Positions 10,391 through 50,718 of a stretch of 64,000 bases of DNA are shown here, in pieces; position 1 is the stretch's first letter; each line of letters opens with the position of its first letter. Source of the DNA: an uncultured virus (IMG/VR IMGVR_UViG_3300020048_000022) (Duplodnaviria > Heunggongvirae > Uroviricota > Caudoviricetes); the IMG/VR virus record IMGVR_UViG_3300020048_000022. The stretch is one strand, 5' to 3'. Under the pieces are notes generated by a model. The model was not told the origin of the DNA, did no database searches, and saw only the letters and a list, made by a program, of their open reading frames with translations. Position numbers and translations under genes: made by a program.

Positions 10391-10398
10391 ATTGAGTG

Positions 10399-10889
10399 TG
10401 GACCCGGAGGGAGTCGAACCCTCGTCCAGATCGGATGCTCAAGAAACTCATTCACAGGCTTATTCCGTTATTCGACACGGACAAACTTTGTTGCATTTCT
10501 TTTTCTTTGCTGACTTAATGCTCGGTCAAGTTTACTCTTCGGTATGAGTCGAATTTCACAGAACAATTAACAGCGCTCCTTGGATTTCTCTGTGGACTGT
10601 CGCTTTCGCTCAGGGTTACTGATTTGCTCTCGATGGTACTATTAACCCTTTTTCCCGGTTTTGAATCTTTCTGTTCCTAGGCCGATCCGGCCCGACGGTT
10701 AAGCTGCTAATAGCATCTCAGCCTCTTCTGCTACCGCTACGCGAGTAATAGAAGTTGGGATACTCATCATATCCTCTGTGTTATAAACGTTTGCATTTAT
10801 TGCTTGATAGGTGATTAAGGATTTCCAATCTAACCCTGCCTGCATCATTTCAAAGAACTACCTCCGCCTGTCAAATCCAGAGCGGGCCC
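10399..10889 (-). ncRNA. ssrA: tmRNA
   Basis: 5' GGGCCCGCTCTGGATTTGAC; 3' GGTTCGACTCCCTCCGGGTCCA; G3:U70 alanine identity pair; tag frame 10794-10699 reads ANVYNTEDMMSIPTSITRVAVAEEAEMLLAA*. Confidence 0.93.
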
Positions 10890-10920
10890 ATTATTATTAT
10901 ATATATTAATTATAAACAAT

Positions 10921-11181
10921 TTAATCTACGTCGTGAATTTTTTCTTCAATAACATTATCACCAAATGATTTTCTATTTCTTTTGTGATTGTCAATTTGAA
11001 GTTGTGCTTCTTCAATGTATTTATATCCAATTCCTAATATTTTTTTATGTTGTTCAGAAATAGAAAACCAACCATCGTGGTTTATTCTTGCAAGTTTTTT
11101 GTACTCTTCGTTGTAATGTTCAGGAAAAAATTCACTTCTTCCATCATCAAACTTTTGTTCTTTAATTCTATAATTTTTCAT
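10921..11181 (-). CDS. Hypothetical protein
   Basis: 86 aa, downstream of attC-like site 1. Confidence 0.6.
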   Translation of the reverse strand: MKNYRIKEQKFDDGRSEFFPEHYNEEYKKLARINHDGWFSISEQHKKILGIGYKYIEEAQLQIDNHKRNRKSFGDNVIEEKIHDVD

Positions 11182-11214
11182 TTTATTTTTAAGTTAATAA
11201 TCCGATTAAACTGT

Positions 11215-11268
11215 TTATAACAAAGTATAAAAAACATTAAAACGATTTTTTACACTCAGCCGTTATAA
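11215..11268 (-). repeat. attC-like palindromic site 1 (54 bp)
   Basis: TTATAAC...GTTATAA ends with an internal imperfect inverted repeat. Confidence 0.7.
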
Positions 11269-11284
11269 GTAATAAAAACTAAAA

Positions 11285-11509
11285 TTAAACTAACTCAACT
11301 TTATACAGTGTTCTATCATTGAAGTTTTCTTTTGAAAAACCTTTTATCACATCATTATTTTTGTGTGAAATTGTTTCAATGTCATCTATATTGTTTTTGA
11401 TGTCATTTAGTGTTTTCCCCAACCTACTCCAGTAAATTTGTTCACACAAAAATATACCAGTCCATTGTAGGTTTTTCAAAATAAAATCTGTTAATTTAGT
11501 TCGTTTCAT
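11285..11509 (-). CDS. Hypothetical cassette-like protein
   Basis: Stop codon 16 nt before site 1. Confidence 0.55.
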   Translation of the reverse strand: MKRTKLTDFILKNLQWTGIFLCEQIYWSRLGKTLNDIKNNIDDIETISHKNNDVIKGFSKENFNDRTLYKVELV

Positions 11510-11526
11510 TTGTTTAATTTTTAAAA

Positions 11527-11742
11527 TTATTTACCATATCTACTATTAACAAAAACTCTATTAGCACCTATTGTAAGTGATAGTTGATTTTGTTCTTTCA
11601 TGAGTGTCTCAAATTGATTTTCTATTCTTAACCTATCTGAATTACTTTTTAACATATTAACCAATTTTTCCAACTCTATATCTCTTTTTGAAGTGAGAAA
11701 ATCAATTTGTTCCTTGTAATTTAATTCTAGTCTTTGTTCCAT
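11527..11742 (-). CDS. Hypothetical coiled-coil protein
   Basis: 71 aa, between sites 2 and 1. Confidence 0.55.
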   Translation of the reverse strand: MEQRLELNYKEQIDFLTSKRDIELEKLVNMLKSNSDRLRIENQFETLMKEQNQLSLTIGANRVFVNSRYGK

Positions 11743-11794
11743 TTGTATAATTTTTTATATTTATTTTTTATTAAAGTTTCAGAGTGATAACTAC

Positions 11795-11848
11795 ACATAA
11801 CAAATGATAAACAACATTAAAACGATTGTTTATCATCGGACGTTAGGT
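11795..11848 (-). repeat. attC-like palindromic site 2 (54 bp)
   Basis: Minus strand ACCTAAC-gtccg-ATGATAAACAA-loop-TTGTTTATCAT-tt-GTTATGT. Confidence 0.75.
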
Positions 11849-11857
11849 TCAATTAAA

Positions 11858-12052
11858 TTATTGTTTTGAGTTTTTTATTGGTATGGTAAATCTAACCGCA
11901 CCAGTTATTTCACTCAATTCTCTATCGTTTATTGACATCATACTATCATCACTACTCTTTCCATATTTACGTTCTTTGGTTTCGTGAAATAACTTCTGTT
12001 TTTCATCAGTCCACTCTTTTTTCCAATCTTCAATGTTTTTGTAAATTTTCAT
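11858..12052 (-). CDS. Hypothetical protein forming a single-gene cassette between sites 3 and 2
   Basis: Stop codon 9 nt before the RYYYAAC of site 2. Confidence 0.6.
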   Translation of the reverse strand: MKIYKNIEDWKKEWTDEKQKLFHETKERKYGKSSDDSMMSINDRELSEITGAVRFTIPIKNSKQ

Positions 12053-12092
12053 ATCTATATTTTTTTTATTTGTAAAACAATAATTTAACTAA

Positions 12093-12146
12093 ACCTAACA
12101 AATGATAAACAACATTAAAACGATTGTTTATCATTGGACGTTATGT
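12093..12146 (-). repeat. attC-like palindromic site 3 (54 bp)
   Basis: Minus strand ACATAAC...GTTAGGT; core differs from site 2 at one base. Confidence 0.75.
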
Positions 12147-12161
12147 GTAATAAAATAAAAA

Positions 12162-12374
12162 TCAAGTTGTGTATTCTTTATTGAGTGAATCCAACAACTC
12201 GTCATAACAACCATCGTAGTAATCCCCACGTTCCTTAATCTCATCTTCTATTGTCTGTATCAGTAGTATTCTAACAATACCTACCTTACTACAATCACCT
12301 TTATCCCAACACACCCAGTTTGAACGAGTTGTTAGATTTTCCATATTCAAAAGTTCTTCTATCCTATCAATCAT
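12162..12374 (-). CDS. Hypothetical protein
   Basis: Stop codon 15 nt before site 3. Confidence 0.55.
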   Translation of the reverse strand: MIDRIEELLNMENLTTRSNWVCWDKGDCSKVGIVRILLIQTIEDEIKERGDYYDGCYDELLDSLNKEYTT

Positions 12375-12387
12375 ATTCGTATTTTTT

Positions 12388-12603
12388 TTAAATTAAATAA
12401 TCTCCTTCAAGATAGTCGTTAAAAAATAGAAGAGCTTTATACGAAGAAAGCCCAGATTCCATACATCTTCTGAAGTAATCTAAATTAAATTCTATCTGTT
12501 CATTAGTATAAAGATAAGTACCATAATTGTATTTATAATCTTCAGTAGCATTACAATCCAATTGTTCTTTAGCTCCTTCTATGTATTTTTCGAAATCTTT
12601 CAT
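12388..12603 (-). CDS. Hypothetical protein
   Basis: 71 aa, ATGA overlap. Confidence 0.55.
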   Translation of the reverse strand: MKDFEKYIEGAKEQLDCNATEDYKYNYGTYLYTNEQIEFNLDYFRRCMESGLSSYKALLFFNDYLEGDYLI

Positions 12604-13688: not shown

Positions 13689-14534
13689 TTATTTTTCTAG
13701 ATTAGGCATTAACTCTTTAAGATAATATTTGTCCTTTGAAAAAATGGGAGTATCTGGATCAGCTTCCCAAACATTACGAGTATAGATTGCAGATTCAGGA
13801 ATTGCAATTGTTTTTTCTGATACTGTCCAATCTGTATCTCTTCGAACAAATTGTTGCTCGACTTTACGAATAAGAGTGCCTCTTTTTTCTCTTGGAGAGA
13901 AATCGTTCCAATTGATACCTTTCTCTAACATTAACATGTCTTGCATATCATTAGTTTTCTTTCCGTTTAATTCCTTAGAAGAAAAGTTAGCTTGTGCAAC
14001 AGAAGAGATAGAGTTTCTTGTGGCATCTTGTTGTCTCCAGATGAAGTAATTGAATACTTCCTCGTGGTAAGGAATTTGAAATACTCGAGCATCAAACATT
14101 GCAAGTTTGAAGTCTTCAATGTCATCCTTGTAGATTGGAGCATCTTCTTTAATAACATCATCAAAACAAGCTCTTGCCATTCTCAATTGGTTAAACTTTG
14201 CAGTTGCCAATGAAGCAGCAATACTTGACATCTTCTGTAGGTTACCATCGAACCAAGCGTGTGTTGAAATATCATCGTAATCAGTGATGAGAATTGATAT
14301 CTCATCTGATTGAACGTATCCAAATTTTGCTCCTTGAATATTCTGACATAAGTACTCAGTTGTCTTGTTCATGTCTTCCATAAGACCTAAATCAAATGGA
14401 CGTTCAAGACCTTTTGTATAAGTATGGAATGCTTTTCCGTCGATACGGATAATTGTGTTGGTGCGACGTGCCAACTTGTAACGTGTTCGGTCCTCGTAGA
14501 AGTCCTTCATTCTGTCGCCTAGTTCATCTTTCAT
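13689..14534 (-). CDS. thg1: tRNA(His) guanylyltransferase, Thg1 family
   Basis: LGDRMK.YE...IIRIDGKAFHTYT...GYVQSDEISI...FDARVF...YFIWRQQDATRNS. Confidence 0.95.
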   Translation of the reverse strand: MKDELGDRMKDFYEDRTRYKLARRTNTIIRIDGKAFHTYTKGLERPFDLGLMEDMNKTTEYLCQNIQGAKFGYVQSDEISILITDYDDISTHAWFDGNLQKMSSIAASLATAKFNQLRMARACFDDVIKEDAPIYKDDIEDFKLAMFDARVFQIPYHEEVFNYFIWRQQDATRNSISSVAQANFSSKELNGKKTNDMQDMLMLEKGINWNDFSPREKRGTLIRKVEQQFVRRDTDWTVSEKTIAIPESAIYTRNVWEADPDTPIFSKDKYYLKELMPNLEK

Positions 14535-20643: not shown

Positions 20644-21516
20644 TTAGAATCCTAGATCTCCAAGATCTGCCGCAGTATCAATATTAGGCAATAAGGATTT
20701 TATTCTATTGTATATATTCTCATTACCTCTTCTTATCTCATCCGCAACTTTAAATGAATCAGCAGATTTATTAAAATACTCAATCATTGTATCAACAACA
20801 ACATTCGGTAATTCAGCATCTCTTAGAGATTCAATTTCATTATCTCCAATTTCTTTTAATAGATTAAGGAATTTCTTACCCAATGAATTCCAATCCCTTT
20901 CCATTGATGAATATCTATTACACGTTTTTTCTAATTCCTTTTTTATTATGGCATCAATTCCTAAATTAGCTCTATAAACAGGAGAAAATAGATCAATATA
21001 TTTTAATTCTTTTATTTTTACCATATTACCTGGCCAAAATATATCCTCCAATATCGGGGTAACGCTATTTACTATAGCATTCCTAAATATATTACTTATA
21101 GGAAGATCGTTTGCTGTATTAACTGGAGGACATGTAGTTAGACCTGTTGATATATCTTTTATTAATTTATTAACACTTGGATAAATATTAGGATCTTTAA
21201 TTTCGTTAGCATAATCGAAATCGCCTTCATTATAACCATTTGGATATTTTATTAAAGATGCTATATCATTTTTATGTATATCCATTATAGTTGAGCTGGC
21301 CTTGTCAGATTTTTCCTCCTTATAAATTAAAATATTCTCATACGATTTATAGATTAACCAGTTTTTAAAATTTTTATTAAAATTAGATCTAGCCATTCCA
21401 GATTTAGCAGAAGCATACGAATTAATATAATCGCTATTAGTATAAACCCTGCTTATATTAAACATATCCCCCTCGTATGATTCAAATATCTTAAAACTCT
21501 TAATCCTTTTCATCAA
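20644..21516 (-). CDS. Hypothetical, putative virion-internal protein
   Basis: MKRIKSFKIFES; C-terminal DTAADLGDLGF. Confidence 0.6.
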   Translation of the reverse strand: MMKRIKSFKIFESYEGDMFNISRVYTNSDYINSYASAKSGMARSNFNKNFKNWLIYKSYENILIYKEEKSDKASSTIMDIHKNDIASLIKYPNGYNEGDFDYANEIKDPNIYPSVNKLIKDISTGLTTCPPVNTANDLPISNIFRNAIVNSVTPILEDIFWPGNMVKIKELKYIDLFSPVYRANLGIDAIIKKELEKTCNRYSSMERDWNSLGKKFLNLLKEIGDNEIESLRDAELPNVVVDTMIEYFNKSADSFKVADEIRRGNENIYNRIKSLLPNIDTAADLGDLGF

Positions 21517-21527
21517 TTATTTTTTTT

Positions 21528-22502
21528 TTATTTTCCTCCAGCTATAGATGCTAAAGGGACATAAAGTACCTTACCGAAGGGAGGATTATTGTATAGTTCA
21601 GGAGAACAAACAAACCATACTGTCTTCTTAGCATATTTTCTAATATTATACATACCTGGGTCTGGCATATCAGCATTTGTATCAGTAAAATAAACAAATA
21701 CCGAAGGCACGATTTTCTCTTTTTGTAACCAAGCAAAAGGAGGTATTAATCCTTTAGAATTTCCTCCTGTTGATTTTATTTTTGATAGATCAGGAACTTT
21801 ATTTTTCTTATCCAAGATATCAATAGCATCAATATCATCACTACAATATATTATTATTGTTCTTTCTGCATCACATTCTTTTGATATTTTAACTATCTCA
21901 GAAAGAAATACCTTTATTGTCTCTACTGGCATAGATCTCATTGAACAATTAGGATCTTTACATAAAGGACATTGACCGGATGTGTCTATAGCTACAACTA
22001 CAGTTCTAAGAGAATCTTCAAATCCACTTTTTCTACCATAAAGAATATTACCAGTTCCTAACATCCTTTTATTAGGAAGCACCCATTCATCAGTTTTTAG
22101 GTAATTATCAAAAAATTTAGTTAATTCTTTTTTCCAGTTAACTAAAGGCTCATTAGATGTTAATTCCTTAATAAGTCTTTTTAATTCCGGGCTCATTGAT
22201 CCTCTACTTGATGATTTAGCTACAATATTTCCCCAGTCTGGAAATTCTAATTTTTTTCTGTATATTCTACTTTTTTTATCAGATTTTATTTCGATAGCTT
22301 TAGTTTTAGATCCCACTGATCCTGATCCTAAATCTACACCCATATTATTACCCTTTTTATCCTTACCAATCTCTGATGTTTTATCGGTTTTTAAAGCTCT
22401 TTCTATATAAACAGGATTTCCGAATTCTACCTTTTTAGATCCGTTATCACTCACCTTATTTTCTTCAGGAAGTATTTTGTATTGTCCTTTTTTTATTAAC
22501 AT
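21528..22502 (-). CDS. vWA-domain protein (DUF2201 C-terminal-like) with interrupted MIDAS
   Basis: VNWKKEL...PNKR...VAIDTSG[QCPLCKDPNCSMR]S...GG...VYFTD. Confidence 0.8.
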   Translation of the reverse strand: MLIKKGQYKILPEENKVSDNGSKKVEFGNPVYIERALKTDKTSEIGKDKKGNNMGVDLGSGSVGSKTKAIEIKSDKKSRIYRKKLEFPDWGNIVAKSSSRGSMSPELKRLIKELTSNEPLVNWKKELTKFFDNYLKTDEWVLPNKRMLGTGNILYGRKSGFEDSLRTVVVAIDTSGQCPLCKDPNCSMRSMPVETIKVFLSEIVKISKECDAERTIIIYCSDDIDAIDILDKKNKVPDLSKIKSTGGNSKGLIPPFAWLQKEKIVPSVFVYFTDTNADMPDPGMYNIRKYAKKTVWFVCSPELYNNPPFGKVLYVPLASIAGGK

Positions 22503-22505
22503 AAT

Positions 22506-23648
22506 TTAAACTTCTATATCCCCATTAGGGTAGATCTTTTTAATTATAGCGACCTTGCCATTATCTAGTATAACCTTATTTCCGACTTTCATGTTAGAGC
22601 TTTGATCTCCTTCTTCTCCACCGCCTTCTCCTTGTTGTCCAGGTTCTCCAGGTTGGTCCCCAGATTCTCCAGATTCTCCTGGCTGGTCTCCTGGTTTATC
22701 TCCTGGTTTATCTCCTGGTTTATCTCCTGGTTTATCTCCTGGTTGGTCCCCAGATTCTCCAGATTCTCCTGGTTGGTCTCCTGGTTGGTCTCCTGGTTTA
22801 TCTCCAGGTTTATCTCCAGGTTGGTCTCCAGGTTGTTCGCCAGGCTGATCCCCTGGTTGGTCTCCTGGTTGTTCTCCAGGTTGTTCTCCAGGTTCATCAC
22901 CAGGTTCATCACCAGGTTGTTCTCCAGGTTCATCGCCAGGTTCATCACCAGGTTGTTCTCCTGGTTCTCCAGGTTCATCGCCAGATTCATCTTGATCCAC
23001 TGGGAAGTCTCCGTCCTGTATATTTAGATCGCTGTCCATTTCTGGAGTTTCGTCTTCGTCTATTATTTTTCCTATATCTGCTTGTTGCATAATCTTAGGA
23101 TCAGCAATCAATTTAGCCAATTCTCCAGATTTTTCTAAAATATCATATATGTCCTCAGCTCGCATTCCCTCAAATCTTGCTTCGTATAGACCAAATCTTT
23201 CTCCGCCTTCTTGTGGCCATTCAACTCCAGTCTCATCTTTTATTATTGGATTTATAGCATAATCACAAGCTATATTCCATCCATCAGGATTTCTTGTCCC
23301 TCTTCTTCCCATATGATCTCCAATACAATGAAGTATTTCATGTATTAGTACAAATCTTACTGCTTCGTCTTTTTGTTTAAGAACAAAATCTGGGTGAAAT
23401 ATTATATCCCTACCATTAGTACACATGGTTGGTGGATCAATCTCAGAAGATCCATAAATATTGAGGTGAGCTAGTAGCTCCCCGTAAAATCCTTTATTGA
23501 TAGCTATCCAAAGAATAGCTTTTCTTATTTTTTTAACAACTTCCGCATTTTGATCCTCACTTTCGTTGATAGCAGAAAAAGATTGAAAATCTAATATCCT
23601 TGATACAGAGCCTCTTCCCTCAAATATTTGGAATTTTTTTATTCTCAT
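22506..23648 (-). CDS. HExxH metallopeptidase-like protein (DUF2201_N-like) with PG(D/E) repeat
   Basis: TMCTNG...HEILH...H...WNIACDYAIN...AEDIYD. Confidence 0.85.
   Translation of the reverse strand: MRIKKFQIFEGRGSVSRILDFQSFSAINESEDQNAEVVKKIRKAILWIAINKGFYGELLAHLNIYGSSEIDPPTMCTNGRDIIFHPDFVLKQKDEAVRFVLIHEILHCIGDHMGRRGTRNPDGWNIACDYAINPIIKDETGVEWPQEGGERFGLYEARFEGMRAEDIYDILEKSGELAKLIADPKIMQQADIGKIIDEDETPEMDSDLNIQDGDFPVDQDESGDEPGEPGEQPGDEPGDEPGEQPGDEPGDEPGEQPGEQPGDQPGDQPGEQPGDQPGDKPGDKPGDQPGDQPGESGESGDQPGDKPGDKPGDKPGDKPGDQPGESGESGDQPGEPGQQGEGGGEEGDQSSNMKVGNKVILDNGKVAIIKKIYPNGDIEV
22635..22985 (-). repeat. Coding tandem repeat, roughly 12-nt unit encoding PG(D/E)(E/Q/K)
   Basis: Repeated cctggtttatct / ccaggttcatca / ccaggttgttct variants. 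Confidence 0.9.
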
Positions 23649-23653
23649 AATTA

Positions 23654-25213
23654 TTAAAGTCCTTTGTTTCTAGCTCCAGAAATTATCATCTTAGCAGCAT
23701 CTAATTTCATAGTATCCTCTTCATTACCAGTAGCTACGCTTGGTGGTCTAAATTGAGGATATTTTTCAAGAATCGATTTATAAAGCCAAGAAAGCATCTC
23801 CAATTGATCATATCTTGCAAAATACTTTACAACATTATAAAGCTCAACCGGAGAATATTCAGTAACAGAGGAAGCAACCATAGAGGAAAAACCATATAAT
23901 ATTGATTTTTCTCTAGCTGCTTCTATTATAGGAGAATTATCAGGATCTGTTTTAATCTTTTCTATATCTTGAATGCTTATTTTTTTAAGTATTTTTAGAT
24001 ACTCTGCTATTTTTCCTGCAGCAAAAGGCCCAACGTTATCAAAGAAAATATCGTGCATAACTTGATCTGGTAGATCTCTCCATGAGTTTACGTTCTCATC
24101 TTGAACCTCGTCATATACTTGAAGAGCAGAATCAGACCACGATCTTGGACTAGGGAAGTTTTTAACCTCTTTGTCTATATCTAACTCGTGAAAAAGATTC
24201 TGGTTGTTCATTAGGAAAGCAACTAACTCAGGGAATATTTTACCATTTGATCTTGCCCAATCTGCCCAGCTTTCTACATTAGGAACATAGTTATAAATTA
24301 CGAATCTATCAGCCAATGCAAAATCAAAATCTGTAACATCAGCTTCTTCTGGTCTATTTCCTGCTGCAACTATTACCCATTTATCAGGCAGTTGGTAATC
24401 ACCAATTCTACCTTCCTGGACGAATTGCATGATTGAGTTTTGAACAGGACCTTTAGATCTGTTCATCTCATCCATGAATATTATCCCTCCTCTATCATCT
24501 TTTCCATTGTCAGTTGGTAATATTCTAGGGGGATTTGCTCTTGTAAATCCTCTACCTGAATTTGTTACTTTACCGTTTTCTATTTCAACTGCCTCTATAT
24601 CATGCTTACTTGGTATTCCTAAAAAATCCTCAGGATTCATAAACTGAAGATCCAGCTTTAATACAGGAATTTTAAGAGCATCTGCTGCTTCGCCTATTGC
24701 TTTTATGCTAAGTTCTTTACCTTCTTTATCTAAATAAAGACTGTTTACTATTTGTGTTTTACCAATACCAGGAGCTCCATATATAAATATAGGTTTAGCT
24801 CTTCCTCCCCTTTGTTTACTTCTATATAATTTAATTAATCTTTTCTTTAATTCCTCAGCAGTTACGTTTCTTACACTTTGATCTGCTCCGGTGTATTCCA
24901 AAGGAACTATAGCTTCTTCTAATTCATAAGATACCGATTCTTTAAGAGGATTAACCCCTTGTTGATATTTCATCATCTGTTGATAAACAGGACCATTCTC
25001 CGGTAAGAATAGCATTGCTACTGGCATTCCTTTCATTGGACCAGAAGGGATGGGTTTAATTAATCCCTGCCCGATCGCTTTAATGAATTCTCCTGCCCAT
25101 CCGCCAACTCTTTTTATAAGATTTACTAATCCTGAAAAGAATCCTTCATTAACTCTTGGATTGTAAGATTCATTAACGAAATCGTTGAAGTTCTTTATTC
25201 GATTATTTTTCAT
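23654..25213 (-). CDS. MoxR-like AAA+ ATPase, copy 1
   Basis: GAPGIGKT, IIFMDEMNR, AAGNR, ALADRF, PSPRSW. Confidence 0.9.
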   Translation of the reverse strand: MKNNRIKNFNDFVNESYNPRVNEGFFSGLVNLIKRVGGWAGEFIKAIGQGLIKPIPSGPMKGMPVAMLFLPENGPVYQQMMKYQQGVNPLKESVSYELEEAIVPLEYTGADQSVRNVTAEELKKRLIKLYRSKQRGGRAKPIFIYGAPGIGKTQIVNSLYLDKEGKELSIKAIGEAADALKIPVLKLDLQFMNPEDFLGIPSKHDIEAVEIENGKVTNSGRGFTRANPPRILPTDNGKDDRGGIIFMDEMNRSKGPVQNSIMQFVQEGRIGDYQLPDKWVIVAAGNRPEEADVTDFDFALADRFVIYNYVPNVESWADWARSNGKIFPELVAFLMNNQNLFHELDIDKEVKNFPSPRSWSDSALQVYDEVQDENVNSWRDLPDQVMHDIFFDNVGPFAAGKIAEYLKILKKISIQDIEKIKTDPDNSPIIEAAREKSILYGFSSMVASSVTEYSPVELYNVVKYFARYDQLEMLSWLYKSILEKYPQFRPPSVATGNEEDTMKLDAAKMIISGARNKGL

Positions 25214-25253: not shown

Positions 25254-26429
25254 TTAAAATAAAGCTCTCACAAGAAGTAGATTGGGGGATAAAGGTGAAT
25301 AACCCATGGCTTCAATGAATCTATTGATCGGATCTAATATTACTCGATTGAATTGTTCATCAAAATCAACAGGAGGAGCTAGCTCATAAGGATATGCTCC
25401 GTTAAGATATCCAAATACGTTATTCTCTCTTTCGTTGTTTACCTTGACATAATAGTACTTAATCTTCTCTGATGATCTGATTAAACTATATTTAACTTTA
25501 TGTTTGGAATTGTTTAGGAGATAGTTGTGATATCCTGCTGCTCTTACGTGCATTGGACAGCCTTTAGCAACTTCGAATTTAGTTGTATCATTTACAATGA
25601 ACTTCTCTATATTATTAACTGAAGTTCCTACTGATATTTGATCCGGGCTTTGTACTTTGAATTCAGATTTTATATTCTTAAGAATCTTTACAAATTCTCT
25701 AATATCAAAAGTTTTACCTTTCTCAAAAATGTGTTGAAGCAAGAATGTAAGTTTCTCTCTAGCAAAGGGAGCAGTGCCTCCTTGTGCTAATTCTATACCT
25801 GTTGATTTAACTTTTGAAAGTCTAGGAAATAAATCCTTATTAGGATCTTGCCAAGCTATATGTAATACATATTTCTTTTTACCTAAGAATATACCAGCAT
25901 AAGATAAACTCTCTAGCTCAAAATCTTGATAGTTATCTGTGCCCCATTTTTCCGAATAGATGTCATAGCATTTCTTAATGTATTCTTTAAGCCTGAATTC
26001 ATTAAGTCTTTTTACAAATTCGAATGGTTCTAGATCCGAATCAAATTCACAAGAATCCATAACAGCTCCAAGATTGATATAATTTGAATCTGTATCTCCG
26101 TATATAATAAAGTCTAATGTTATCTTCCTGACATTGCGAACTCCCATTTTTTCATGAAGCTCAGTATCAAGATGCCACATGTCATTGAAATATCTGTTTA
26201 TTATCTTCTCAGCAAATTTCCAAATGTCCTGACCTTGCAAAGTAACGCTCTCCGCAACATCTGGATTGAATAAAGCAAAGTACTGATTTCCTGTCGCTCC
26301 GTATATACTGTTAAGTGTTAACTTAATACCTTGTTCAGTATTATAGAAATCCGAAGATTTCTTTTGATACTCCGTTAATTGTTGATTGAGCTCTTCTAAG
26401 CTCATTGACATGTAGTCTATTTCTTCCAT
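25254..26429 (-). CDS. Family B DNA polymerase, C-terminal half (gp43B-like)
   Basis: KLTLNSIYG, YGDTDS, KKKY; no exonuclease domain or motif A. Confidence 0.92.
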   Translation of the reverse strand: MEEIDYMSMSLEELNQQLTEYQKKSSDFYNTEQGIKLTLNSIYGATGNQYFALFNPDVAESVTLQGQDIWKFAEKIINRYFNDMWHLDTELHEKMGVRNVRKITLDFIIYGDTDSNYINLGAVMDSCEFDSDLEPFEFVKRLNEFRLKEYIKKCYDIYSEKWGTDNYQDFELESLSYAGIFLGKKKYVLHIAWQDPNKDLFPRLSKVKSTGIELAQGGTAPFAREKLTFLLQHIFEKGKTFDIREFVKILKNIKSEFKVQSPDQISVGTSVNNIEKFIVNDTTKFEVAKGCPMHVRAAGYHNYLLNNSKHKVKYSLIRSSEKIKYYYVKVNNERENNVFGYLNGAYPYELAPPVDFDEQFNRVILDPINRFIEAMGYSPLSPNLLLVRALF

Positions 26430-28646: not shown

Positions 28647-30149
28647 TTAAGAGATGTCGTCGAAGTTAGTAAGTACCTTAGGTTTTTTATTTGTTCCAGT
28701 ACTTCCAGTAGAACCAGTTCCTCCTTCTGTACTTGCTGAAGCAACTACTTCTGCTCCTTGATAAGCAAGACCTTTTAGTGCATTGTCCATAACTTCTTTA
28801 GGAATATCATCTAATTGTATTAAGGCATAATAGAATTTAGTGGCATTCATTTGCTCTTTCTCTGCTTTAGCTATGAAATCTTGCCATTCTTGGTAATCAG
28901 AAAATACTTGACATCCTGCTGACCAAGGTCCAACACAAATACCAACCCCTTTAGTTGATGATCTGTGTATTTGCATTCCACAGGATTCAGTGAAAACCTC
29001 AGCTGGTTTATAACTTTCAAATTTAGTTACTCCGATAGGGTATCTTCCAACTTTAATAGGTTCACCCTCTACCATCATCTTGTATTTTGTACCGGAACCT
29101 AAAGAACTCTCCTGTAAAATATAGAGGGTATCTCCAGGAAGTTTAATACCAACACCTTTAGGGTTCATTGGTTTTTTACCGTAATAAGCTAAACTGGGTA
29201 CTGTTGTTATTTGATATGGCGTTATTTTATCTCCAAGATCAGATGGAGGTATTGGTCCAGTTGGTCCAGTTGGCTGTGTAGGTTGTGATGCTTTATTATC
29301 ATCTCCTGTAGATTTTTTCTTATTATCCTTCTTAGGATCCTCATCAACTAATCCAACTTTTTGTCCAACCCATTTTGCTGCACCCTTTACTCCGCCCCAA
29401 ATCTTACCTAATATTCCTTCTTCGTATAGTTGGATAAATTCATTCTCTGTTATTTCGCCAGATTCTAAAAGATCCTTATTTTCAATAAGAAATACTCTCT
29501 CTTTATTGATATTATCGAAATCTTCAAAAGACCATAAACCAGATTCTGAAATATTTTCTAATTCTAATATTCTTTGGTTTATAAATTCAAGAATTCTTAA
29601 TGATTCATTTTTATTTTTCTTAGCTAGATTGGAAGCCCCAGTAGGTCCAGTTGCCCCAGTAGAGCCTGTACCATCCTTTGCGTTTCCTGGTATAAAATAT
29701 AATGCGTCACAGAATCTATCTTGGTTTGATGTTTCTTTTTTTACAGATAGATTATTTCTTATACCTACTATTACAGATCTTTTCTCGTTTAATTCATTTA
29801 TAATTCTAGAGTATTCACCAGCTTTTTTTTCCTGCAGATAATTAAGGAGTAATTTGATAGTCATTACTGAAAGTGGGGTTTTTTCTAATCTGTAAGGTTC
29901 ACTAGCCCCACACCCTCTATAAGGTAGAGATTCCTTAACCTCTTTAGTTTGATCTATTAAAGAATCTACACCGCCAGTAAGTCCAACATTCTCTCCAAAT
30001 AGACCTTTGATTATACCTGTTGCAATTCTAGATTTTGCTTCTCTTTCAGTCTCTGGTTTCCCTGGATCTGTTGCTCCCGTTGCTCCTGGTAATATTGAAT
30101 CGTCTTGTTCGTTTATAAATTGTTTAAACGTAAATAATTTTTTATCCAT
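28647..30149 (-). CDS. Putative L,D-transpeptidase-like virion protein
   Basis: FTFKQFINEQ N-terminus; GMQIHRS...WSAGCQV (H...SxGC). Confidence 0.5.
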   Translation of the reverse strand: MDKKLFTFKQFINEQDDSILPGATGATDPGKPETEREAKSRIATGIIKGLFGENVGLTGGVDSLIDQTKEVKESLPYRGCGASEPYRLEKTPLSVMTIKLLLNYLQEKKAGEYSRIINELNEKRSVIVGIRNNLSVKKETSNQDRFCDALYFIPGNAKDGTGSTGATGPTGASNLAKKNKNESLRILEFINQRILELENISESGLWSFEDFDNINKERVFLIENKDLLESGEITENEFIQLYEEGILGKIWGGVKGAAKWVGQKVGLVDEDPKKDNKKKSTGDDNKASQPTQPTGPTGPIPPSDLGDKITPYQITTVPSLAYYGKKPMNPKGVGIKLPGDTLYILQESSLGSGTKYKMMVEGEPIKVGRYPIGVTKFESYKPAEVFTESCGMQIHRSSTKGVGICVGPWSAGCQVFSDYQEWQDFIAKAEKEQMNATKFYYALIQLDDIPKEVMDNALKGLAYQGAEVVASASTEGGTGSTGSTGTNKKPKVLTNFDDIS

Positions 30150-30153
30150 GATC

Positions 30154-30161
30154 TATATATC
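30154..30161 (-). promoter_or_regulatory. Late-type promoter GATATATA
   Basis: 4 nt before the ATG. Confidence 0.6.
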
Positions 30162-30163
30162 GA

Positions 30164-30490
30164 TTATTTAGATCTTTTTATCAATAGAGATAATATCACT
30201 GCAATGAAAGAAACTAGTCCAGATCCTATAAAGGAATACAGTAAAAAATCGGGACTTATTATATGACCTTTTATCATAAAACTTACTGTATCTAATTTCA
30301 ATGGGACAAAAAGAAAATATAGAATCATTGAAGCCCAGAATGAAGTACATTGATAACAATTAAGCATATCTCCAAAAAATGGTAAATTTATTAATAACCA
30401 ATTTCTAAATCCTTCAAGAATTTTAGAAGCTACTAAAATGTGGGTTAACCCCCAAATACTAAGTATATAAAATATAAAAGTCATAATCAA
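30164..30490 (-). CDS. DUF1360-like membrane protein
   Basis: Hydrophobic helices; LNCYQCTSFW. Confidence 0.7.
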   Translation of the reverse strand: MIMTFIFYILSIWGLTHILVASKILEGFRNWLLINLPFFGDMLNCYQCTSFWASMILYFLFVPLKLDTVSFMIKGHIISPDFLLYSFIGSGLVSFIAVILSLLIKRSK

Positions 30491-31545
30491 TTAAATATTT
30501 CGTGGTCCTTTAATTCGTCTAAGAATTCTTTCTGTTCCTCAGTGAGATTATCTGGAATTTTTACGTTCAATTCGACTAAGAAATTACCAACACCTCCATA
30601 TCCTAATACAGGAATTCCTTTTTGTGCAAAGCTTAAAACCGTTCCTGGTATAGTTCCAGGAGAAACTATAGCTTTAACCCTTTCACCATCTGGCATTTCT
30701 ACATCTATATTAGTACCCAATACTGCTTCTATAAATGTTATCTGTTTGCTAGAGATAAGATCAACCCCTCTTCTTAAAAATTCAGGATGTGGAATTTCTT
30801 TAATCTTTACATATAGATCACCGCTTTTCCCGTTTGCTTTACCCTCGTTACCCTTACTTGAAACTACAAATTGCATACCATCAGAAGCTCCAGCAGGTAT
30901 ATGAACGTCTATAATATCTTCCTCATTTTTTAATCCATTACCTAAACAATATAGACAAACTTCAAGAACTACTCTACCTACACCTCCACATGAATCACAA
31001 GATCTAACTGAATTCATCTGAACAAATCCATTCATTCTATTTATTGTTAAGAATCCTGAGCCTTTACATGTTCCGCAAGTTTGAAAAGAAGTTCCATTGT
31101 CAGATCCAGTACCCGAGCAAGGCTTACATTTTTTATCCCTCTTGATTTTTATTCTCTTATCAACTCCATTAATAATATCGTGTAGATATAGTTTAAGAGT
31201 TATATTTAACGAAGTACCTTTAGGTGCTTCAGGAGTAAATCCTCTACCATGAGAATAATGGTCGGCAAATGGATCTGAATGATTCCAATTGTTATTAAAG
31301 CTACTAAAATCTCCAAATCCCCCAGAGAAAGAATTCTGAAAACTCCTTTTTCTGTCATATTCCTGTCTTTTAGTTGGATCCCCAATATTTTCGTAAGCCT
31401 CCGTTATCTTTTTGAATCTTTCCTCTGCGTCGGGATCTTTGTTTTTATCAGGGTGATATTTTTTAGCCATCTCACGATAAGCTTTCTTAATAGAATCCTG
31501 ATCCGCATTTTCTTGTACGCCTAGTGTATCGTAATAATTTTCCAT
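30487..31545 (-). CDS. dnaJ: DnaJ chaperone (J domain, zinc finger, C-terminal domain)
   Basis: YHPDKN; four CxxCxGxG repeats. Confidence 0.95.
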   Translation of the reverse strand: MENYYDTLGVQENADQDSIKKAYREMAKKYHPDKNKDPDAEERFKKITEAYENIGDPTKRQEYDRKRSFQNSFSGGFGDFSSFNNNWNHSDPFADHYSHGRGFTPEAPKGTSLNITLKLYLHDIINGVDKRIKIKRDKKCKPCSGTGSDNGTSFQTCGTCKGSGFLTINRMNGFVQMNSVRSCDSCGGVGRVVLEVCLYCLGNGLKNEEDIIDVHIPAGASDGMQFVVSSKGNEGKANGKSGDLYVKIKEIPHPEFLRRGVDLISSKQITFIEAVLGTNIDVEMPDGERVKAIVSPGTIPGTVLSFAQKGIPVLGYGGVGNFLVELNVKIPDNLTEEQKEFLDELKDHEIFN

Positions 31546-42241: not shown

Positions 42242-43648
42242 TTATTGTTTTGTTTTTATTGCTTTTTTAATTTTCTCTATTTCTTTTTCACACTCAAAAT
42301 ATTTCTTCTTAGTTGCTTTTCTCTGTGCATATAATCCCTGCAATATTTCTCTAAGTATTGGCTCTCTGCCTTCTTTACTATAAAAGACTGCTCCTGATGA
42401 GGTCTTAATTGCTCCTTCTGGTATTTCCTTTAGATTCTTTCCTATATAAACTTCTGGTGAAATTCCCCATTGTATCATCGTGTTAGGATATAGTGAAGCA
42501 AAGTCAAAACAAGCAATCCATTCATAAATTCCTCTTTCTGGTTTCTTTACATAAGCTCCCTCGAATTTTACGTGATTCTCTTCTTTTCTTTCGCTTAGAA
42601 TAACTCTTTTTCTTTCCAAGAATTTTCTTAACATAAGTACTTCTGTAGTCCACACAGGAGAAAGTGCTCTATTGATCTCCACTTTACTAACTTCTGCAAT
42701 TTTAAAGAATGTAGAAAGAGTATCTAGTCTTCTATCAATATAATGTACAAGACCGCAGTCAATAGCATTATAGAATATGAATGTATCAAAATCAGATTCG
42801 TATAGATCCTTTAATGTTCCATTATAAGCAATTTTCTTAATGCCTATTGCTTGTGTTGCCACATAGTCTAATGAATTAGATTCTTTAATCTTAACTACCC
42901 TATCCCACTTTTTATAAATGTCCATGTAGTCAACCATTAGCACGTGCATAGGAATTTGATTTTTTCCTAGTAGAACTCCGCTTGGTGAAGCAATCTTAGG
43001 ATCTATTCCTAATCTTCTAGCTCTGCTTAACAAATAAGGCCAGTCATATCCGAACCAGTTCCATCCGGTTATTAAAGGCATTTTTGGAACTAACTTAGAA
43101 AGAAATGTGTACATCATATCAAATTCACTTTCGAACTTTCTATAATTAAATGTCCAATCTCCTTCTTGATCTTTAAAATGCTCCTTAATTCTTTTCTCAA
43201 TTTTAAGAATCCTTTCCGGGGTCATATCTTGTAGTCCGATAACTAGAACCTTACCGTGTGATGAAGCCATACCAATAGAAAGAACTCTATTCTTAGCATT
43301 CTCTGTATCTAGTGAATCTGCACGATTGTCAGTGATCTCTACCTCTATATCGACAAAGTATTTTTTAGGTGTTTGATAATCCCATAAAGGTTTAGTTATT
43401 TCCGGATCAATAGCTTCTAAAATTTCTACAACACGATACTTATCGAATTTAGTAGAAGAAACTTTCTTAACCGGTTTTCCGTCCCAAGAAAGCCATTCTT
43501 TATCTTTGGCTTTATCGTAATCCTGTGTCTTTTGCCAAACAAATTGTAATGCCTTTGGTACTGGGATTTTTAACATGTTAACTTCACCTTCTTCGGTGTA
43601 ATGTGAGACTGTTAAACCGCCTCCTGTATTTTCTATATCGATTATCAT
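42242..43648 (-). CDS. Family B DNA polymerase, N-terminal half (exonuclease plus motif A; gp43A-like)
   Basis: DIEVE, TGWNWFGYDWPY, YNAID, FEGAYV, FDFASLYP; ends in the fingers helix. Confidence 0.92.
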   Translation of the reverse strand: MIIDIENTGGGLTVSHYTEEGEVNMLKIPVPKALQFVWQKTQDYDKAKDKEWLSWDGKPVKKVSSTKFDKYRVVEILEAIDPEITKPLWDYQTPKKYFVDIEVEITDNRADSLDTENAKNRVLSIGMASSHGKVLVIGLQDMTPERILKIEKRIKEHFKDQEGDWTFNYRKFESEFDMMYTFLSKLVPKMPLITGWNWFGYDWPYLLSRARRLGIDPKIASPSGVLLGKNQIPMHVLMVDYMDIYKKWDRVVKIKESNSLDYVATQAIGIKKIAYNGTLKDLYESDFDTFIFYNAIDCGLVHYIDRRLDTLSTFFKIAEVSKVEINRALSPVWTTEVLMLRKFLERKRVILSERKEENHVKFEGAYVKKPERGIYEWIACFDFASLYPNTMIQWGISPEVYIGKNLKEIPEGAIKTSSGAVFYSKEGREPILREILQGLYAQRKATKKKYFECEKEIEKIKKAIKTKQ

Positions 43649-48826: not shown

Positions 48827-48867
48827 CTTGTAAATTCTATTTTATTTATATTTCTATATATCTTATT

Positions 48868-49883: not shown

Positions 49884-49887
49884 ACTT

Positions 49888-50691: not shown

Positions 50692-50718
50692 CTTCTTTTT
50701 TTATTTATATATCTGGTT

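What the first reader, a model, noticed from the sequence alone, without database searches (positions are those of the whole stretch)
11215..12146. Phage-borne integron-like cassette array with the footprint of a cassette insertion
Seen: three 54-bp palindromic sites (11215-11268, 11795-11848, 12093-12146) separate small same-strand ORFs. Each begins 9-16 nt after a stop codon and has ...TAAC/GTTA... ends around a hairpin. ACCTAAC fits the attC RYYYAAC box and GTTAGGT fits GTTRRRY. The outer arms of sites 2 and 3 are swapped: site 2 left tacacataac pairs with site 3 right gttatgtgta (10 bp), and site 3 left aacctaac pairs with site 2 right gttaggtt (8 bp). Established: this is the pattern left when a circular cassette recombines at G|TT into an existing attC site. 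Inference: the 298-bp unit carrying ORF 11858-12052 was integrated as a cassette, so this phage gains accessory genes by attC-type recombination. No integrase is visible in the window. The spacer is asymmetric (5 vs 2 nt), so the sites are not fully canonical.
Basis: partly seen in the sequence, partly recalled or inferred. Interest (0 to 1): 0.85.

Follow-up and report, generated by a model that had tools for sequence, protein, structure and literature searches.

The report
Integron-like gene cassettes in a phage
A large freshwater phage carries a short row of small genes separated by conserved DNA hairpins that behave like the swappable gene cassettes of bacterial integrons, and related phages and bacteria carry the enzyme and docking site that would move them.

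Summary
Three copies of a about 48-nt hairpin site (TAAC, covarying 12-bp stem, invariant loop, GTTA) lie between small minus-strand ORFs of a T4-like large phage. The integron-like reading is supported and extended.

- **Cassette 3:** the 298-bp unit with ORF64 recurs at 96.7% identity in another viral contig. Homology stops at GTTA on both sides, and there it abuts a 268-aa Xer-like tyrosine recombinase.
- **Platform:** in 52 of 56 loci a conserved attI-like box (TAAC|TAnnATATAT) lies 39-49 nt before the recombinase gene. The sequence on its other side is variable.
- **Polarity:** all 47 hairpin sites seen near recombinases lie upstream and in one orientation.
- **Cassette ends:** ends are mutually complementary beyond chance. 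ORF70 and the ORF74+ORF71 unit also recur elsewhere with breaks at TAAC/GTTA.
- **Window:** it holds four cassettes, three hairpins and an attI-like remnant next to a tmRNA gene, but no recombinase.
- **Spread:** the same sites and platform occur in Flavobacteriia genomes, there invaded by group II introns.

It is not a canonical integron: the recombinase lacks the IntI insertion. One family member, a Polaribacter phage site, failed with IntI1 in print. Circles, empty sites and catalysis were not shown.

The parts
10890..10909 (-). attI-like remnant. In gene sense it reads ...AAATTGTTTATAAT|TAATATATATAATAATAAT. It lies between cassette 1 and the 5' end of the tmRNA gene. The crossover base is T, not C.
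   Evidence: Compared by eye with the consensus aATTnnnnaTAAC|TAttATATATaaA of 47 distinct recombinase-proximal sites. The cassette-1 boundary at 10909/10910 is supported by a 17-nt, 94% complementary end pair (I10). The arrangement from tmRNA to site 1 is kept on one contig of run X4 (record 17).
10910..11262 (-). Cassette 1: hairpin site 1 plus ORF86 (10921-11181)
   Evidence: Ends 10910-10926 and 11204-11220 are 94% complementary over 17 nt (I10). ORF. No Pfam or PHROGs family.
11218..11265 (-). Hairpin site 1 (TAAC, stem AAAGTATAAAAA-type, loop, GTTA)
   Evidence: The stem differs from sites 2 and 3 by compensatory changes.
11263..11842 (-). Cassette 2: hairpin site 2 plus ORF71 (11527-11742) and ORF74 (11285-11509)
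   Evidence: 89.7% identical to a unit in a 464-kb viral contig (L177/L222). The match starts exactly at the GTTA boundary and is flanked there by long-type hairpin sites. Contigs of X3, X4 and X5 cover 11229-11757.
11798..11845 (-). Hairpin site 2
11843..12140 (-). Cassette 3 (298 nt): hairpin site 3 plus ORF64 (11858-12052)
   Evidence: 96.7% identical unit in L129, ending at GTTA on both sides; there it lies next to the attI box and recombinase. Terminal inverted repeats, 41 nt at 78% (I1). Loose ends at 11841/11842 and 12142/12143 in runs X2 and X4.
12096..12143 (-). Hairpin site 3
12141..12388 (-). Cassette 4, truncated at its 5' end: ORF70 (12162-12374) without its own hairpin
   Evidence: Seven metagenome loci share this unit at 87-94% identity. 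All eight sequences end ...TTATTACACATAAC and then diverge into seven different continuations. Five of the seven loci have hairpin-T-GTTATGTGT upstream; the window and L396 do not.
10396..10889 (-). tmRNA gene, standing where relatives have the recombinase gene (a neighbour, not shown to be part of the system)
   Evidence: Rfam RF00023, 77.1 bits; ARAGORN

Best explanation
The three sites are recombination sites of an integron-like gene-cassette system of Bacteroidota phages and bacteria. The window holds a recombinase-less array, the analogue of a CALIN.

**Layout.** In gene direction the array reads: backbone, cassette 4 (ORF70), cassette 3 (ORF64), cassette 2 (ORF71+ORF74), cassette 1 (ORF86), attI-like remnant, tmRNA. 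In gene sense each cassette is C, short spacer, hairpin, T, GTTAxxxxx, leader (often with its own promoter), ORF(s), x'x'x'x'x'TAA.

**Proposed mechanism.** A 268-aa Xer-like tyrosine recombinase, encoded next to a conserved attI-like box in relatives, cuts at TAA|C (G|TTA on the other strand). It thereby excises cassettes as circles and inserts them at attI or at another hairpin site. The strand carrying TCGTTTTAATG is the one that folds, as for the attC bottom strand.

**Shown here.** Site structure and covariation, fixed junctions, the same cassettes in different contexts, complementary cassette ends, and the polar association with the recombinase and attI.

**Inferred.** Catalysis by this recombinase, the exact cleavage position within TAAC/GTTA, single-strand folding, circular intermediates, and which enzyme serves the window's array. 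The role of the invariant loop is unknown. My guess is recognition by the recombinase or a helper protein.
For: **1. Structure.** 49 aligned sites (47 distinct) gave 95.8% paired cells. Eleven of 12 inner-stem pairs show changes on both sides. The covariation score is 0.480, against 0.130 in shuffles (0 of 500 as high) and at most 0.108 when the partner is slid. The loop TCGTTTTAATG and the AAC/GTT letters are invariant or nearly so.

**2. Strand asymmetry.** Wobble pairs fall on the gene-sense strand 21 times and 0 times on the other in 46 distinct sites. Counts are 18:0 in viral loci and 20:2 in genome loci.

**3. Recombinase.** Cassette 3 abuts a tyrosine recombinase in L129. It has Phage_integrase and SAM_4 domains and the conserved tyrosine-recombinase motifs, LRVSE, KDR, HTLRHS, GHS and the tyrosine in EIYTHV, aligned with XerA.

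**4. Polarity.** 29 of 80 recombinase loci have hairpin sites within 4 kb. All 47 sites lie upstream and in one orientation; none lies downstream.

**5. attI.** The motif lies 39-49 nt before the start codon in 52 of 56 loci, and the other 4 have near variants. Sequence left of TAAC is unrelated between loci.

**6. Mobility with fixed junctions.** Cassette 3 matches L129 with 0-nt overhang on both sides. A 480-nt cassette of L045 matches L136 at 94.4%, also with 0/0 overhang. Cassette 2 matches L177 starting exactly at GTTA. Cassette 4 in eight sequences diverges right after TAAC into seven continuations.

**7. Cassette ends.** Own-cassette ends match at 4.12 of 8 positions, against 3.08 +/- 0.20 for shuffled pairing (0 of 2000 as high) and 2.96 within sites. 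In genome contigs, 14 of 41 sites have the exact 9-nt complement upstream, against 0 of 41 downstream.

**8. Bacterial counterpart.** A Flavobacteriaceae genome has a 268-aa recombinase with the same attI box. Three group II intron copies there are each inserted in GT|TA just after a hairpin arm.

**9. Independent runs.** Contigs from other metagenome runs break at 11841/11842, 11846 and 12142/12143. One puts a TATATA box directly before 11842.
Against: No recombinase lies in the window, and its whole genome is not held. Activity in this phage is therefore not shown.

No circular form and no empty site was found. Only assembled contigs could be laid, not raw reads.

Arrays are short: 0-7 conserved-loop sites per 84-465 kb record in 16 records. 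Some clusters lie tens of kb from the recombinase.

The same cassette can carry different hairpin tops, or different hairpins, in different genomes. Hairpin and cargo are thus not strictly one unit.

About 25-45 nt next to the sites are also conserved between cassettes with different ORFs. That gives homologous recombination something to act on.

DNA folding energies of the two strands hardly differ: -7.47 against -7.53 kcal/mol.

The shuffle controls ignore the relatedness of the sequences. Several loci are near-identical contigs, and these were not removed.
Confidence: 0.75

Rival explanations
1. PeSL-type regulatory cassettes. The hairpin plus leader is an expression signal (terminator and promoter) of a T4-like hyperplastic region. 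Shuffling is a by-product of the phage's homologous recombination between these repeats, and the nearby recombinase is unrelated.
For: The window is T4-like (gp32, RNA ligase 1, prohead protease, topoisomerase II). The region is hypervariable: only the Thg1 gene matched (plus scattered short matches in 3 loci) in the 12 closest of 40 related loci compared. The ORFs have no family. Leaders of 25-50 nt, some with TAnnTTTG boxes (a consensus I recall), are conserved next to the hairpins. PeSLs flank ORFans and form mini-circles (PMC2839356, abstract and passages).
Against: Junctions are fixed at TAAC/GTTA rather than spread over the repeat. At attI there is no hairpin and no shared flank, yet cassettes abut it precisely in 52 of 56 loci. 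The hairpins are AT-rich, lack a T tail, and none was called terminator-like. Sigma-70-like hits were 15, against 16.0 +/- 3.3 expected. The site faces the opposite way relative to transcription in bacteria and in phages.
Confidence: 0.1
2. Ordinary integration module. The recombinase is a lysogeny or island integrase, the TATATA box is its attP, and the hairpins are attB- or attL/R-like targets of whole-element integration rather than cassette sites.
For: Three recombinase-bearing contigs are classed as proviruses. Solitary hairpins lie downstream of genes in Bacteroidota chromosomes. The closest cultured relatives of the recombinase are annotated as integrases of Cellulophaga and Polaribacter phages, at 36-40% identity.
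Against: The units between sites are 245-600 nt single-ORF cassettes with complementary ends. The same cassette lies at attI in one genome and between two hairpins in another. Arrays sit in 100-465 kb phage genomes, one of them with terminal repeats.
Confidence: 0.05
3. Ends or targets of another mobile element: a small non-autonomous hairpin element (MITE- or REP-like, IS200/IS605-like), or merely preferred group II intron targets.
For: The site is a conserved palindrome with an invariant loop, found in many phages and bacteria. Group II introns sit in the sites of one bacterial genome.
Against: Copy number in five bacterial genomes is at background: 10-18 hits against 8-19 for the reversed control. 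No transposase lay beside the sites in the loci I listed ORFs for (ORF listing only, no family search of those ORFs). The variable cargo between sites and the attI junction are not explained.
Confidence: 0.05
4. A purely RNA-level signal: a terminator, a processing site, or a binding site for a regulatory protein.
For: The fold is stronger on the transcribed-sense strand in the window. The position is between a stop codon and the next start codon. The loop is invariant.
Against: In six of six bacterial isolates examined the site lies the other way round relative to flanking genes, while the wobble asymmetry stays on the same element strand. No Rfam family matched at gathering score, or at E up to 10 on the sites. 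No T tail. This reading does not explain fixed junctions or complementary cassette ends.
Confidence: 0.03

Closest known systems
Integrons (IntI, attI, attC cassettes) and CALINs, clusters of attC sites without an integrase
   Same: A tyrosine recombinase of the Xer/IntI clan sits next to a fixed docking site. A one-sided, one-orientation array of short cassettes follows. Each cassette is bounded by an imperfect palindrome with conserved AAC...GTT and a crossover at G|TT. Each cassette's two ends are complementary. One strand is favoured for folding. Recombinase-less arrays exist. Group II introns are inserted in the sites; group IIC-attC introns are known to me only from the abstract of PMC3001079 (search listing).
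   Different: The recombinase has 268 aa and lacks the IntI-specific insertion: 32 aa where IntI4 has 80. It scores below the NCBIfam integron-integrase cutoff, 158 against 265 bits. The hairpin has a perfect stem with a 3-4 nt one-sided bulge and no extrahelical bases. Its apical loop is invariant in the short form. In phages the ORFs read towards the recombinase, with the hairpin 5' of the ORF, and many cassettes carry a promoter-like leader. Hosts are Bacteroidota, where canonical integrons are nearly absent (PMC9024848, passages).
Predicted attC sites in virulent phages (Qi et al. 2023, PMC9892861), especially Polaribacter phage P12002L attC1
   Same: P12002L_attC1 in their Table S3 is a member of this site family: TAAC, stem, TCGTTTTAATG, stem, GTTA. 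I found it at about 30026 of NC_028924, with a second, imperfect copy at about 30926. The two flank a methyltransferase gene, no recombinase is present in the 48,000 of 48,689 bases searched, and orientation relative to genes matches the window.
   Different: That paper treats it as a canonical attC found by HattCI. It was the one site of six that gave no verified recombination with IntI1 (section 3.4 and the Figure 2 legend). No cognate recombinase, attI or family was described there. The other phage with a CALIN shown there (MW202573) is an unrelated 34.6-kb P22-like phage.
PeSLs (promoter-early stem-loops) of T4-type phages
   Same: Repeated stem-loop plus leader modules flank ORFans in hypervariable regions of T4-like phages. 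They are linked with insertion, deletion and mini-circles (PMC2839356, passages; PMC4122927, abstract).
   Different: PeSLs are GC-rich terminators with sigma-70 promoters, and exchange is by homology at varying points. Whether a dedicated recombinase exists was left open by the authors. Here the junctions are fixed and a recombinase with a docking site is associated.
Xer-dependent elements: folded single-strand attP of CTX phage (recalled) and pdif modules of Acinetobacter (PMC7399989, abstract in search listing only)
   Same: Xer-type recombinases move small modules, and in CTX phage they act on a folded single strand.
   Different: Those use the host XerC/D and dif-like 28-bp sites. Here the elements encode their own recombinase. 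A test for dif-like dyad symmetry of the attI box was inconclusive: at best about 5 of 11 positions.

Membership tests
Integron (sensu IntegronFinder: IntI + attI + attC array) | Integrase with the IntI-specific additional domain | tested here: not met
   Aligned to IntI4 (2a3v), query residues 178-209 stand opposite chain residues 179-258. TIGR02249 scored 158.2 bits against a cutoff of 265, in two stretches. NF011946 scored 96 against 435. The window itself has no recombinase.
Integron (sensu IntegronFinder: IntI + attI + attC array) | attI next to the integrase gene, with cassettes joined at a fixed point | tested here: met
   Met in relatives: 52 of 56 loci have TAAC|TAnnATATAT 39-49 nt before the start, with a variable left side. 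In the window only a remnant lies next to the tmRNA gene (compared).
Integron (sensu IntegronFinder: IntI + attI + attC array) | attC: imperfect palindrome with R'' RYYYAAC and R' GTTRRRY, AAC/GTT conserved | tested here: met
   AAC is invariant, and GTT is invariant or at least 90% conserved, in 49 sites. The RYYY/RRRY parts are only partly kept: of the six arms in the window, two fit fully.
Integron (sensu IntegronFinder: IntI + attI + attC array) | Unpaired central spacer and extrahelical bases that mark the bottom strand | tested here: inconclusive
   There is a one-sided 3-4 nt bulge between the outer 5-bp helix and the stem, and the stem has no extrahelical bases. Strand bias is seen only as wobble pairs, 21:0.
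Integron (sensu IntegronFinder: IntI + attI + attC array) | Each cassette's attC R'' is complementary to the cassette's own first bases | tested here: met
   4.12 of 8 positions against 3.08 +/- 0.20 (0 of 2000 shuffles) over 32 cassettes. 14 of 41 against 0 of 41 in genome contigs. Window cassettes 1 and 3 (I10 and I1).
Integron (sensu IntegronFinder: IntI + attI + attC array) | Sites score with the attC covariance model, or are recombined by an integron integrase | not testable with these tools
   IntegronFinder and HattCI are not on hand. In print, family member P12002L_attC1 was predicted by HattCI but gave no verified recombination with IntI1 (PMC9892861, section 3.4, Figure 2 legend, Table S3).
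Integron (sensu IntegronFinder: IntI + attI + attC array) | Promoterless cassettes, with the ORF followed by its attC and read away from intI | tested here: not met
   In phages the ORFs are antisense to the core and read towards the recombinase. The hairpin lies 5' of the ORF. Several leaders carry TAnnTTTG boxes (the consensus is recalled).
PeSL (T4-type promoter-early stem-loop) | Stem-loop that is a GC-rich terminator, plus a sigma-70 early promoter | tested here: not met
   None of the three hairpins was called terminator-like. Promoter-like hits were 15 against 16.0 +/- 3.3 expected.
PeSL (T4-type promoter-early stem-loop) | Flanks ORFans in hyperplastic regions of T4-like phages | tested here: met
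   T4-like core genes. No synteny around the array in the 12 closest of 40 related loci compared. ORFs without a family.
PeSL (T4-type promoter-early stem-loop) | Exchange by homologous recombination at varying points within the repeat | tested here: not met
   Breaks lie at TAAC/GTTA with 0-nt overhang in three independent cassette pairs, and in 8 of 8 ORF70 copies.
Xer recombinases (XerC/XerD/XerA equivalogs) | Score above the curated equivalog cutoff | tested here: not met
   XerA_Arch 179 against 220; XerD 146.9 against 329.6; XerC 146.9 against 335. The best solved relative is XerA 4a8e at E 3.2e-35. It belongs to the clan but is not one of these proteins.
Intrinsic terminator | GC-rich stem followed by a T run | tested here: not met
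   sequence.

The most novel reading that the evidence does not exclude
A second kind of integron, evolved or diverged apart from IntI integrons, is shared by Bacteroidota and their large virulent phages. A small Xer-like recombinase without the IntI domain, a TATATA-box docking site and folded TAAC/GTTA hairpins move self-expressed single-gene cassettes. Movement occurs within and between phage genomes and host chromosomes. It would be the dedicated recombinase that the PeSL authors asked about, and a route of gene flow between lytic phages and hosts.
Probability: 0.55. Interest if true: 0.92.

Novelty: new variant of a known kind. Interest (0 to 1): 0.85.

Why it matters
Integrons are the textbook device for capturing and reordering genes. 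By the IntegronFinder surveys they are nearly absent from Bacteroidota and rare in phages.

If the system works as inferred, large phages of Flavobacteriia have their own cassette platform, with a simpler recombinase. That would explain how hypervariable regions of T4-like phages gain and lose ORFans at precise points. It would also give the PeSL question (is there a targeted recombinase?) a testable candidate.

The same sites in host chromosomes point to cassette traffic between virulent phages and bacteria. The simple parts are a 268-aa enzyme, a box of about 20 bp and a hairpin of about 48 nt. There is also a cultured carrier of the sites, Polaribacter phage P12002L. Together these make bench tests straightforward.

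Tried and rejected
- **Own genome:** not held, so the rest of this phage could not be searched for the recombinase.
- **Strain-level relatives:** ORF70 and ORF64 protein scans of viral contigs gave 0 and 1 relatives. The 12 closest of 40 Thg1-related loci that I compared shared essentially only that gene with the window. No strain-level comparison, and hence no empty-site test, was possible.
- **Read laying:** all four runs are assembled contigs. The joints at 11266>11791 and those skipping about 186-226 nt inside cassette 3 have short sides (20-34 nt), with 'between: not known'. I read them as other cassettes sharing the conserved termini or as repeat-induced chaining, not as excision products. 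Parts without cover say nothing.
- **dif-like dyad symmetry of attI:** best about 5 of 11 matches, with an AT-repeat periodicity. Not supported.
- **T4 late-promoter reading:** I considered it for the TATA(T)AA box beside class-B sites. I dropped it because the box is on the antisense strand of all 15 loci examined.
- **Bacteroidetes -33/-7 promoter inside the hairpin:** not conserved, judged by eye.
- **tmRNA near relatives' recombinases:** none in 28 loci.
- **Generic TAAC...GTTA hairpin scan of the window:** it found two more candidates (46505-46651, 58949-59017) with weak stems. I took them as chance. The shuffle control of that script crashed on the window's N run and was not repeated.
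- **Rfam:** nothing on the sites.
- **Earlier notes of this scan:** none.
Full report
**1. The observation**

The window holds three exact copies of AACATTAAAACGATT, at 11233, 11813 and 12111 on the + strand, and no others. They sit inside a 71-nt repeat family with 580 and 298 nt spacing. All genes around them are on the minus strand. The sites fill the gaps between ORF86, ORF74+ORF71, ORF64 and ORF70.

**2. Anatomy of a site**

On the gene-sense (minus) strand a site reads as follows:
- a 5-bp outer helix, UAACG with UGUUA;
- a 3-nt bulge;
- a 12-bp stem;
- an 11-nt loop, TCGTTTTAATG.

Folding z-scores are -2.95 to -3.93 on this strand and -0.83 to -3.01 on the other.

Many of these show the same architecture with different stems. 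Aligning the three window sites with 46 distinct sites from those loci (49 rows, 47 distinct) gave:
- 95.8% paired cells;
- changes on both sides in 11 of 12 inner-stem pairs;
- a covariation score of 0.480, against 0.130 in shuffles (0 of 500 as high) and at most 0.108 with slid partners;
- a loop and AAC/GTT letters that are invariant or nearly so.

Wobble pairs fall only on the gene-sense strand: 21 against 0 in 46 distinct sites. None of the hairpins looks like an intrinsic terminator, and promoter-like hits are at chance. Rfam has nothing on them.

**3. The window**

Pfam marks the window as a T4-like large phage. It has gp32, RNA ligase 1, an S77 prohead protease fragment, a split family-B polymerase, topoisomerase II and ribonucleotide reductase. 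There is no recombinase. A tmRNA gene lies at 10396-10889.

Directly before the tmRNA, in gene sense, stands ...AAATTGTTTATAAT|TAATATATATAATAA. It resembles the docking box described in section 5, but has T where relatives have the crossover C. The ends of cassette 1 (10910-10926 and 11204-11220) are 94% complementary over 17 nt (I10). The ends of cassette 3 form a 41-nt, 78% inverted repeat (I1).

**4. The missing enzyme**

A protein scan with ORF64 found one relative, contig IMGVR_UViG_3300032050_015755. Its DNA matches window 12143-11842 at 96.7% and nothing beyond that unit. On one side the unit ends at the GTTA of its hairpin. On the other side GTTAGGTT follows ...ATATATATTA with no hairpin. 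About 40 nt further a 268-aa ORF starts.

That ORF is a tyrosine recombinase with Phage_integrase and SAM_4 domains. Its best NCBIfam models are all below their cutoffs: XerA_Arch, integron integrase, XerD and XerC. Its best solved relatives are XerA (4a8e, E 3.2e-35) and IntI4 (2a3v, E 1.3e-26). Against IntI4 it has 32 residues where IntI4 has 80, so the IntI-specific insertion is absent. The conserved catalytic motifs are present.

**5. A platform, not a coincidence**

Eighty-five viral stretches encode relatives of the recombinase, mostly on contigs of 100-465 kb.
- In 29 of the 80 kept loci I found 47 hairpin sites within 4 kb. All lie upstream of the recombinase gene and in the same orientation; none lies downstream. 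Near-identical contigs were not removed from this count.
- In 52 of 56 loci with the N-terminus and 200 nt upstream, the motif AAC[TA]A-N1-4-ATAT lies 39-49 nt before the start. The other four have close variants.
- The consensus of 47 distinct copies is aATTnnnnaTAAC|TAttATATATaaA.
- To the right of the bar the sequence is conserved down to 45% recombinase identity. To the left it is unrelated between loci except for the cassette-end consensus.

This is what an attI looks like.

Whole-record counts are low: 0-7 conserved-loop sites in each of 16 records. Some clusters lie far from the recombinase, like the window's array. gp32 relatives at 30-35% identity in two of five such records show that these are distant large phages.

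**6. Cassettes move, with fixed junctions**

| Cassette | Match | Boundary result |
|---|---|---|
| Cassette 3 (ORF64) | L129, 96.7% | 0-nt overhang on both sides |
| 480-nt cassette of L045 | L136, 94.4% | 0/0 overhang; TATATA box in one genome, about 200-nt hairpin site in the other |
| Cassette 2 (ORF74+ORF71) | L177/L222 (464-kb contig), 89.7% | starts exactly at GTTA; flanked by long hairpin sites with another apex |
| ORF70 unit | 7 full-unit loci of 9 relatives, 87-94% | all eight sequences end ...TTATTACACATAAC, then diverge into seven continuations |

For the ORF70 unit, five of the seven loci have a hairpin followed by T-GTTATGTGT upstream. That is the complement of the unit's own end. 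The stem base is conserved, while the hairpin's top ranges from the short invariant loop to inserts of tens of bases. The window and one other locus lack this 5' part.

Over 32 cassettes between neighbouring sites, a cassette's two ends match at 4.12 of 8 positions. Shuffled pairing gives 3.08 +/- 0.20 (0 of 2000 as high), and the two arms of one site give 2.96.

Contigs of four freshwater or lake runs pile up 10-80 fold on the hairpins. They leave the window sequence at 11841/11842, 11846 and 12142/12143. One contig carries a TATATA box right before 11842. One keeps tmRNA, box, cassette 1 and site 1 together. These are assemblies, so they show presence, not frequency, and they cannot show circles.

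**7. Bacteria have it too**

Sixty of them have the full hairpin context, mostly in Bacteroidota. They include isolates of Hwangdonia, Aquimarina, Flavivirga, Algibacter and Paucihalobacter.
- Copy number per genome is at background.
- In six of six isolates examined the site lies just after a gene on the strand that carries CATTAAAACGA. That is the reverse of the phage arrangement.
- The wobble bias nevertheless stays on the same element strand, 20 against 2. This argues for a DNA-level role rather than an RNA-level one.
- In 14 of 41 cases the exact 9-nt complement of the left arm lies within 2.5 kb upstream, against 0 of 41 downstream. It sits next to another hairpin arm or a TATATA box.

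Among 301 Flavobacteriaceae genomes, 130 matched the recombinase at E up to 1e-45. I examined the 20 best loci, and two of them have a recombinase ORF of about 270 aa with the same box at -40 and -48. In one of these two, a C5-methylase gene lies upstream, followed by three copies of a group II intron. The copies are 1.87 kb long and 99.7-99.9% identical. Each is inserted inside GT|TA directly after a hairpin arm.

**8. How it most likely works**

The parts fit integron logic. In this scheme:
- the recombinase docks at attI and at folded hairpins;
- it exchanges strands at TAA|C;
- it releases or inserts units that start with a hairpin and end in TAA.

The window's array is cassette 4 (truncated at its 5' end), cassettes 3, 2 and 1, and a mutated box where a tmRNA gene has taken the recombinase's place. 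I infer that it is now dependent on a recombinase encoded elsewhere in the genome, in a co-infecting phage or in the host. It may instead be frozen.

Catalysis, cleavage position, single-strand folding, circles and the role of the invariant loop are all inferred.

**9. Rivals**

- **Homologous recombination between regulatory repeats (PeSL model).** It fits the phage type and the conserved leaders. It does not fit the fixed junctions, the hairpin-less attI junction or the opposite orientation in bacteria.
- **Whole-element integrase.** It does not explain single-ORF units with complementary ends.
- **Other transposon.** It lacks a transposase and lacks copy number.
- **Pure RNA signal.** It fails on orientation.

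**10. What is in print**

Six full-text searches found no description of this recombinase, box and hairpin system.

The closest paper is Qi et al. 2023 (PMC9892861). I read the abstract, section 3.4, passages and supplementary file 1. Its Table S3 lists P12002L_attC1, which is a member of this site family. It was predicted by HattCI and was the one site of six without verified IntI1 recombination. I confirmed two sites flanking a methyltransferase gene in that phage and found no recombinase there in the 48,000 of 48,689 bases searched. Their GenBank-format annotations on Dryad were not available to me.

IntegronFinder 2.0 reports canonical integrons as nearly absent from Bacteroidetes (PMC9024848, passages).

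The PeSL papers describe the nearest phage analogue and leave open whether a dedicated recombinase exists (PMC2839356, passages; PMC4122927, abstract).

The Bacteroidetes promoter consensus TAnnTTTG, the folded attP of CTX phage and the orientation rules of attC bottom strands are recalled, not taken from a call.

**11. Caveats**

- Several loci are overlapping or near-identical fetches. They were removed by sequence, but not.
- Shuffle controls ignore shared ancestry.
- Host assignment rests on promoter-like boxes, on the relatives of the recombinase and on the bacterial carriers of the site.
- Long-type sites were seen but not counted.

Noticed in passing
window 10396-10889 (-): A phage-borne tmRNA gene (tag peptide EEAEMLLAA*). 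It starts about 1 nt after the attI-like TATATA box, where relatives have the recombinase gene. A terminator-like hairpin follows at 10390-10362. None of 28 recombinase or array loci scanned has a tmRNA.
   Followed up: partly
L177 1560-2260; L136 3760-3940; L390-L392 around the ORF70 unit: Long-type sites. The TAAC and GTTA arms and the stem base are the same, but the top of the hairpin is 40-150 nt of other sequence instead of the invariant 11-nt loop. They recall the variable terminal structures of attC sites. I did not count them.
   Followed up: partly
L136 about 3944; L141 about 284; L052 3001-3051; L088; many loci: A second site form ('class B'). GTTAnnnn and nnnnTAAC themselves form the stem around the same loop. 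This form often lies directly on the attI box or directly after a normal site, and it is flanked by TATA(T)AA boxes. 31 of 134 distinct site contexts were of this form. Its role is unexplained.
   Followed up: partly
L419 (Flavobacteriaceae genome G192, contig 1, 240000-259999): Three tandem group II intron copies (reverse transcriptase plus maturase, 426 aa) lie in consecutive hairpin sites upstream of a C5-methylase gene, the attI box and a 268-aa recombinase. An 847-aa SNF2 plus N6/N4-methylase gene follows.
   Followed up: partly
L150, L159, L162, L138, L152: the 60-120 nt left of the attI junction: A conserved non-coding element often lies right next to attI. It reads roughly ...AAACTTAATCG...GTAGCACTTG..CATAAC and is preceded by a TAnnTTTG box. 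It may be a small RNA or the promoter region of the recombinase gene.
   Followed up: no
window 13689-14534 (-): A Thg1-like tRNA-His guanylyltransferase gene. Forty viral loci encode relatives. In the 12 closest that I compared, essentially only this gene matched the window, so the gene itself seems to sit in a hypervariable region.
   Followed up: partly
window 51708-51807: A run of 100 N, which is a masked or unresolved stretch.
   Followed up: no
window 20644-25213 and 47237-51684: Two sets of DUF2201 metallopeptidase/VWA-like genes sit beside AAA_5 (MoxR-like) ATPase genes. The family-B DNA polymerase is split into two distant ORFs (25254-26429 and 42242-43648). DnaJ, UvdE and adenylate kinase genes are also present.
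   Followed up: no
NC_028924 (L421) about 29990-30960: The cultured Polaribacter phage P12002L carries two sites of this family around methyltransferase gene gp36. I found no recombinase in the 48,000 of 48,689 bases searched. It is a possible laboratory model.
   Followed up: partly
window 58949-59017: A weak TAAC...GTTA hairpin spans the gap between two ORFs (57918-58991 and 59005-59970). It has no conserved loop and is probably chance.
   Followed up: no
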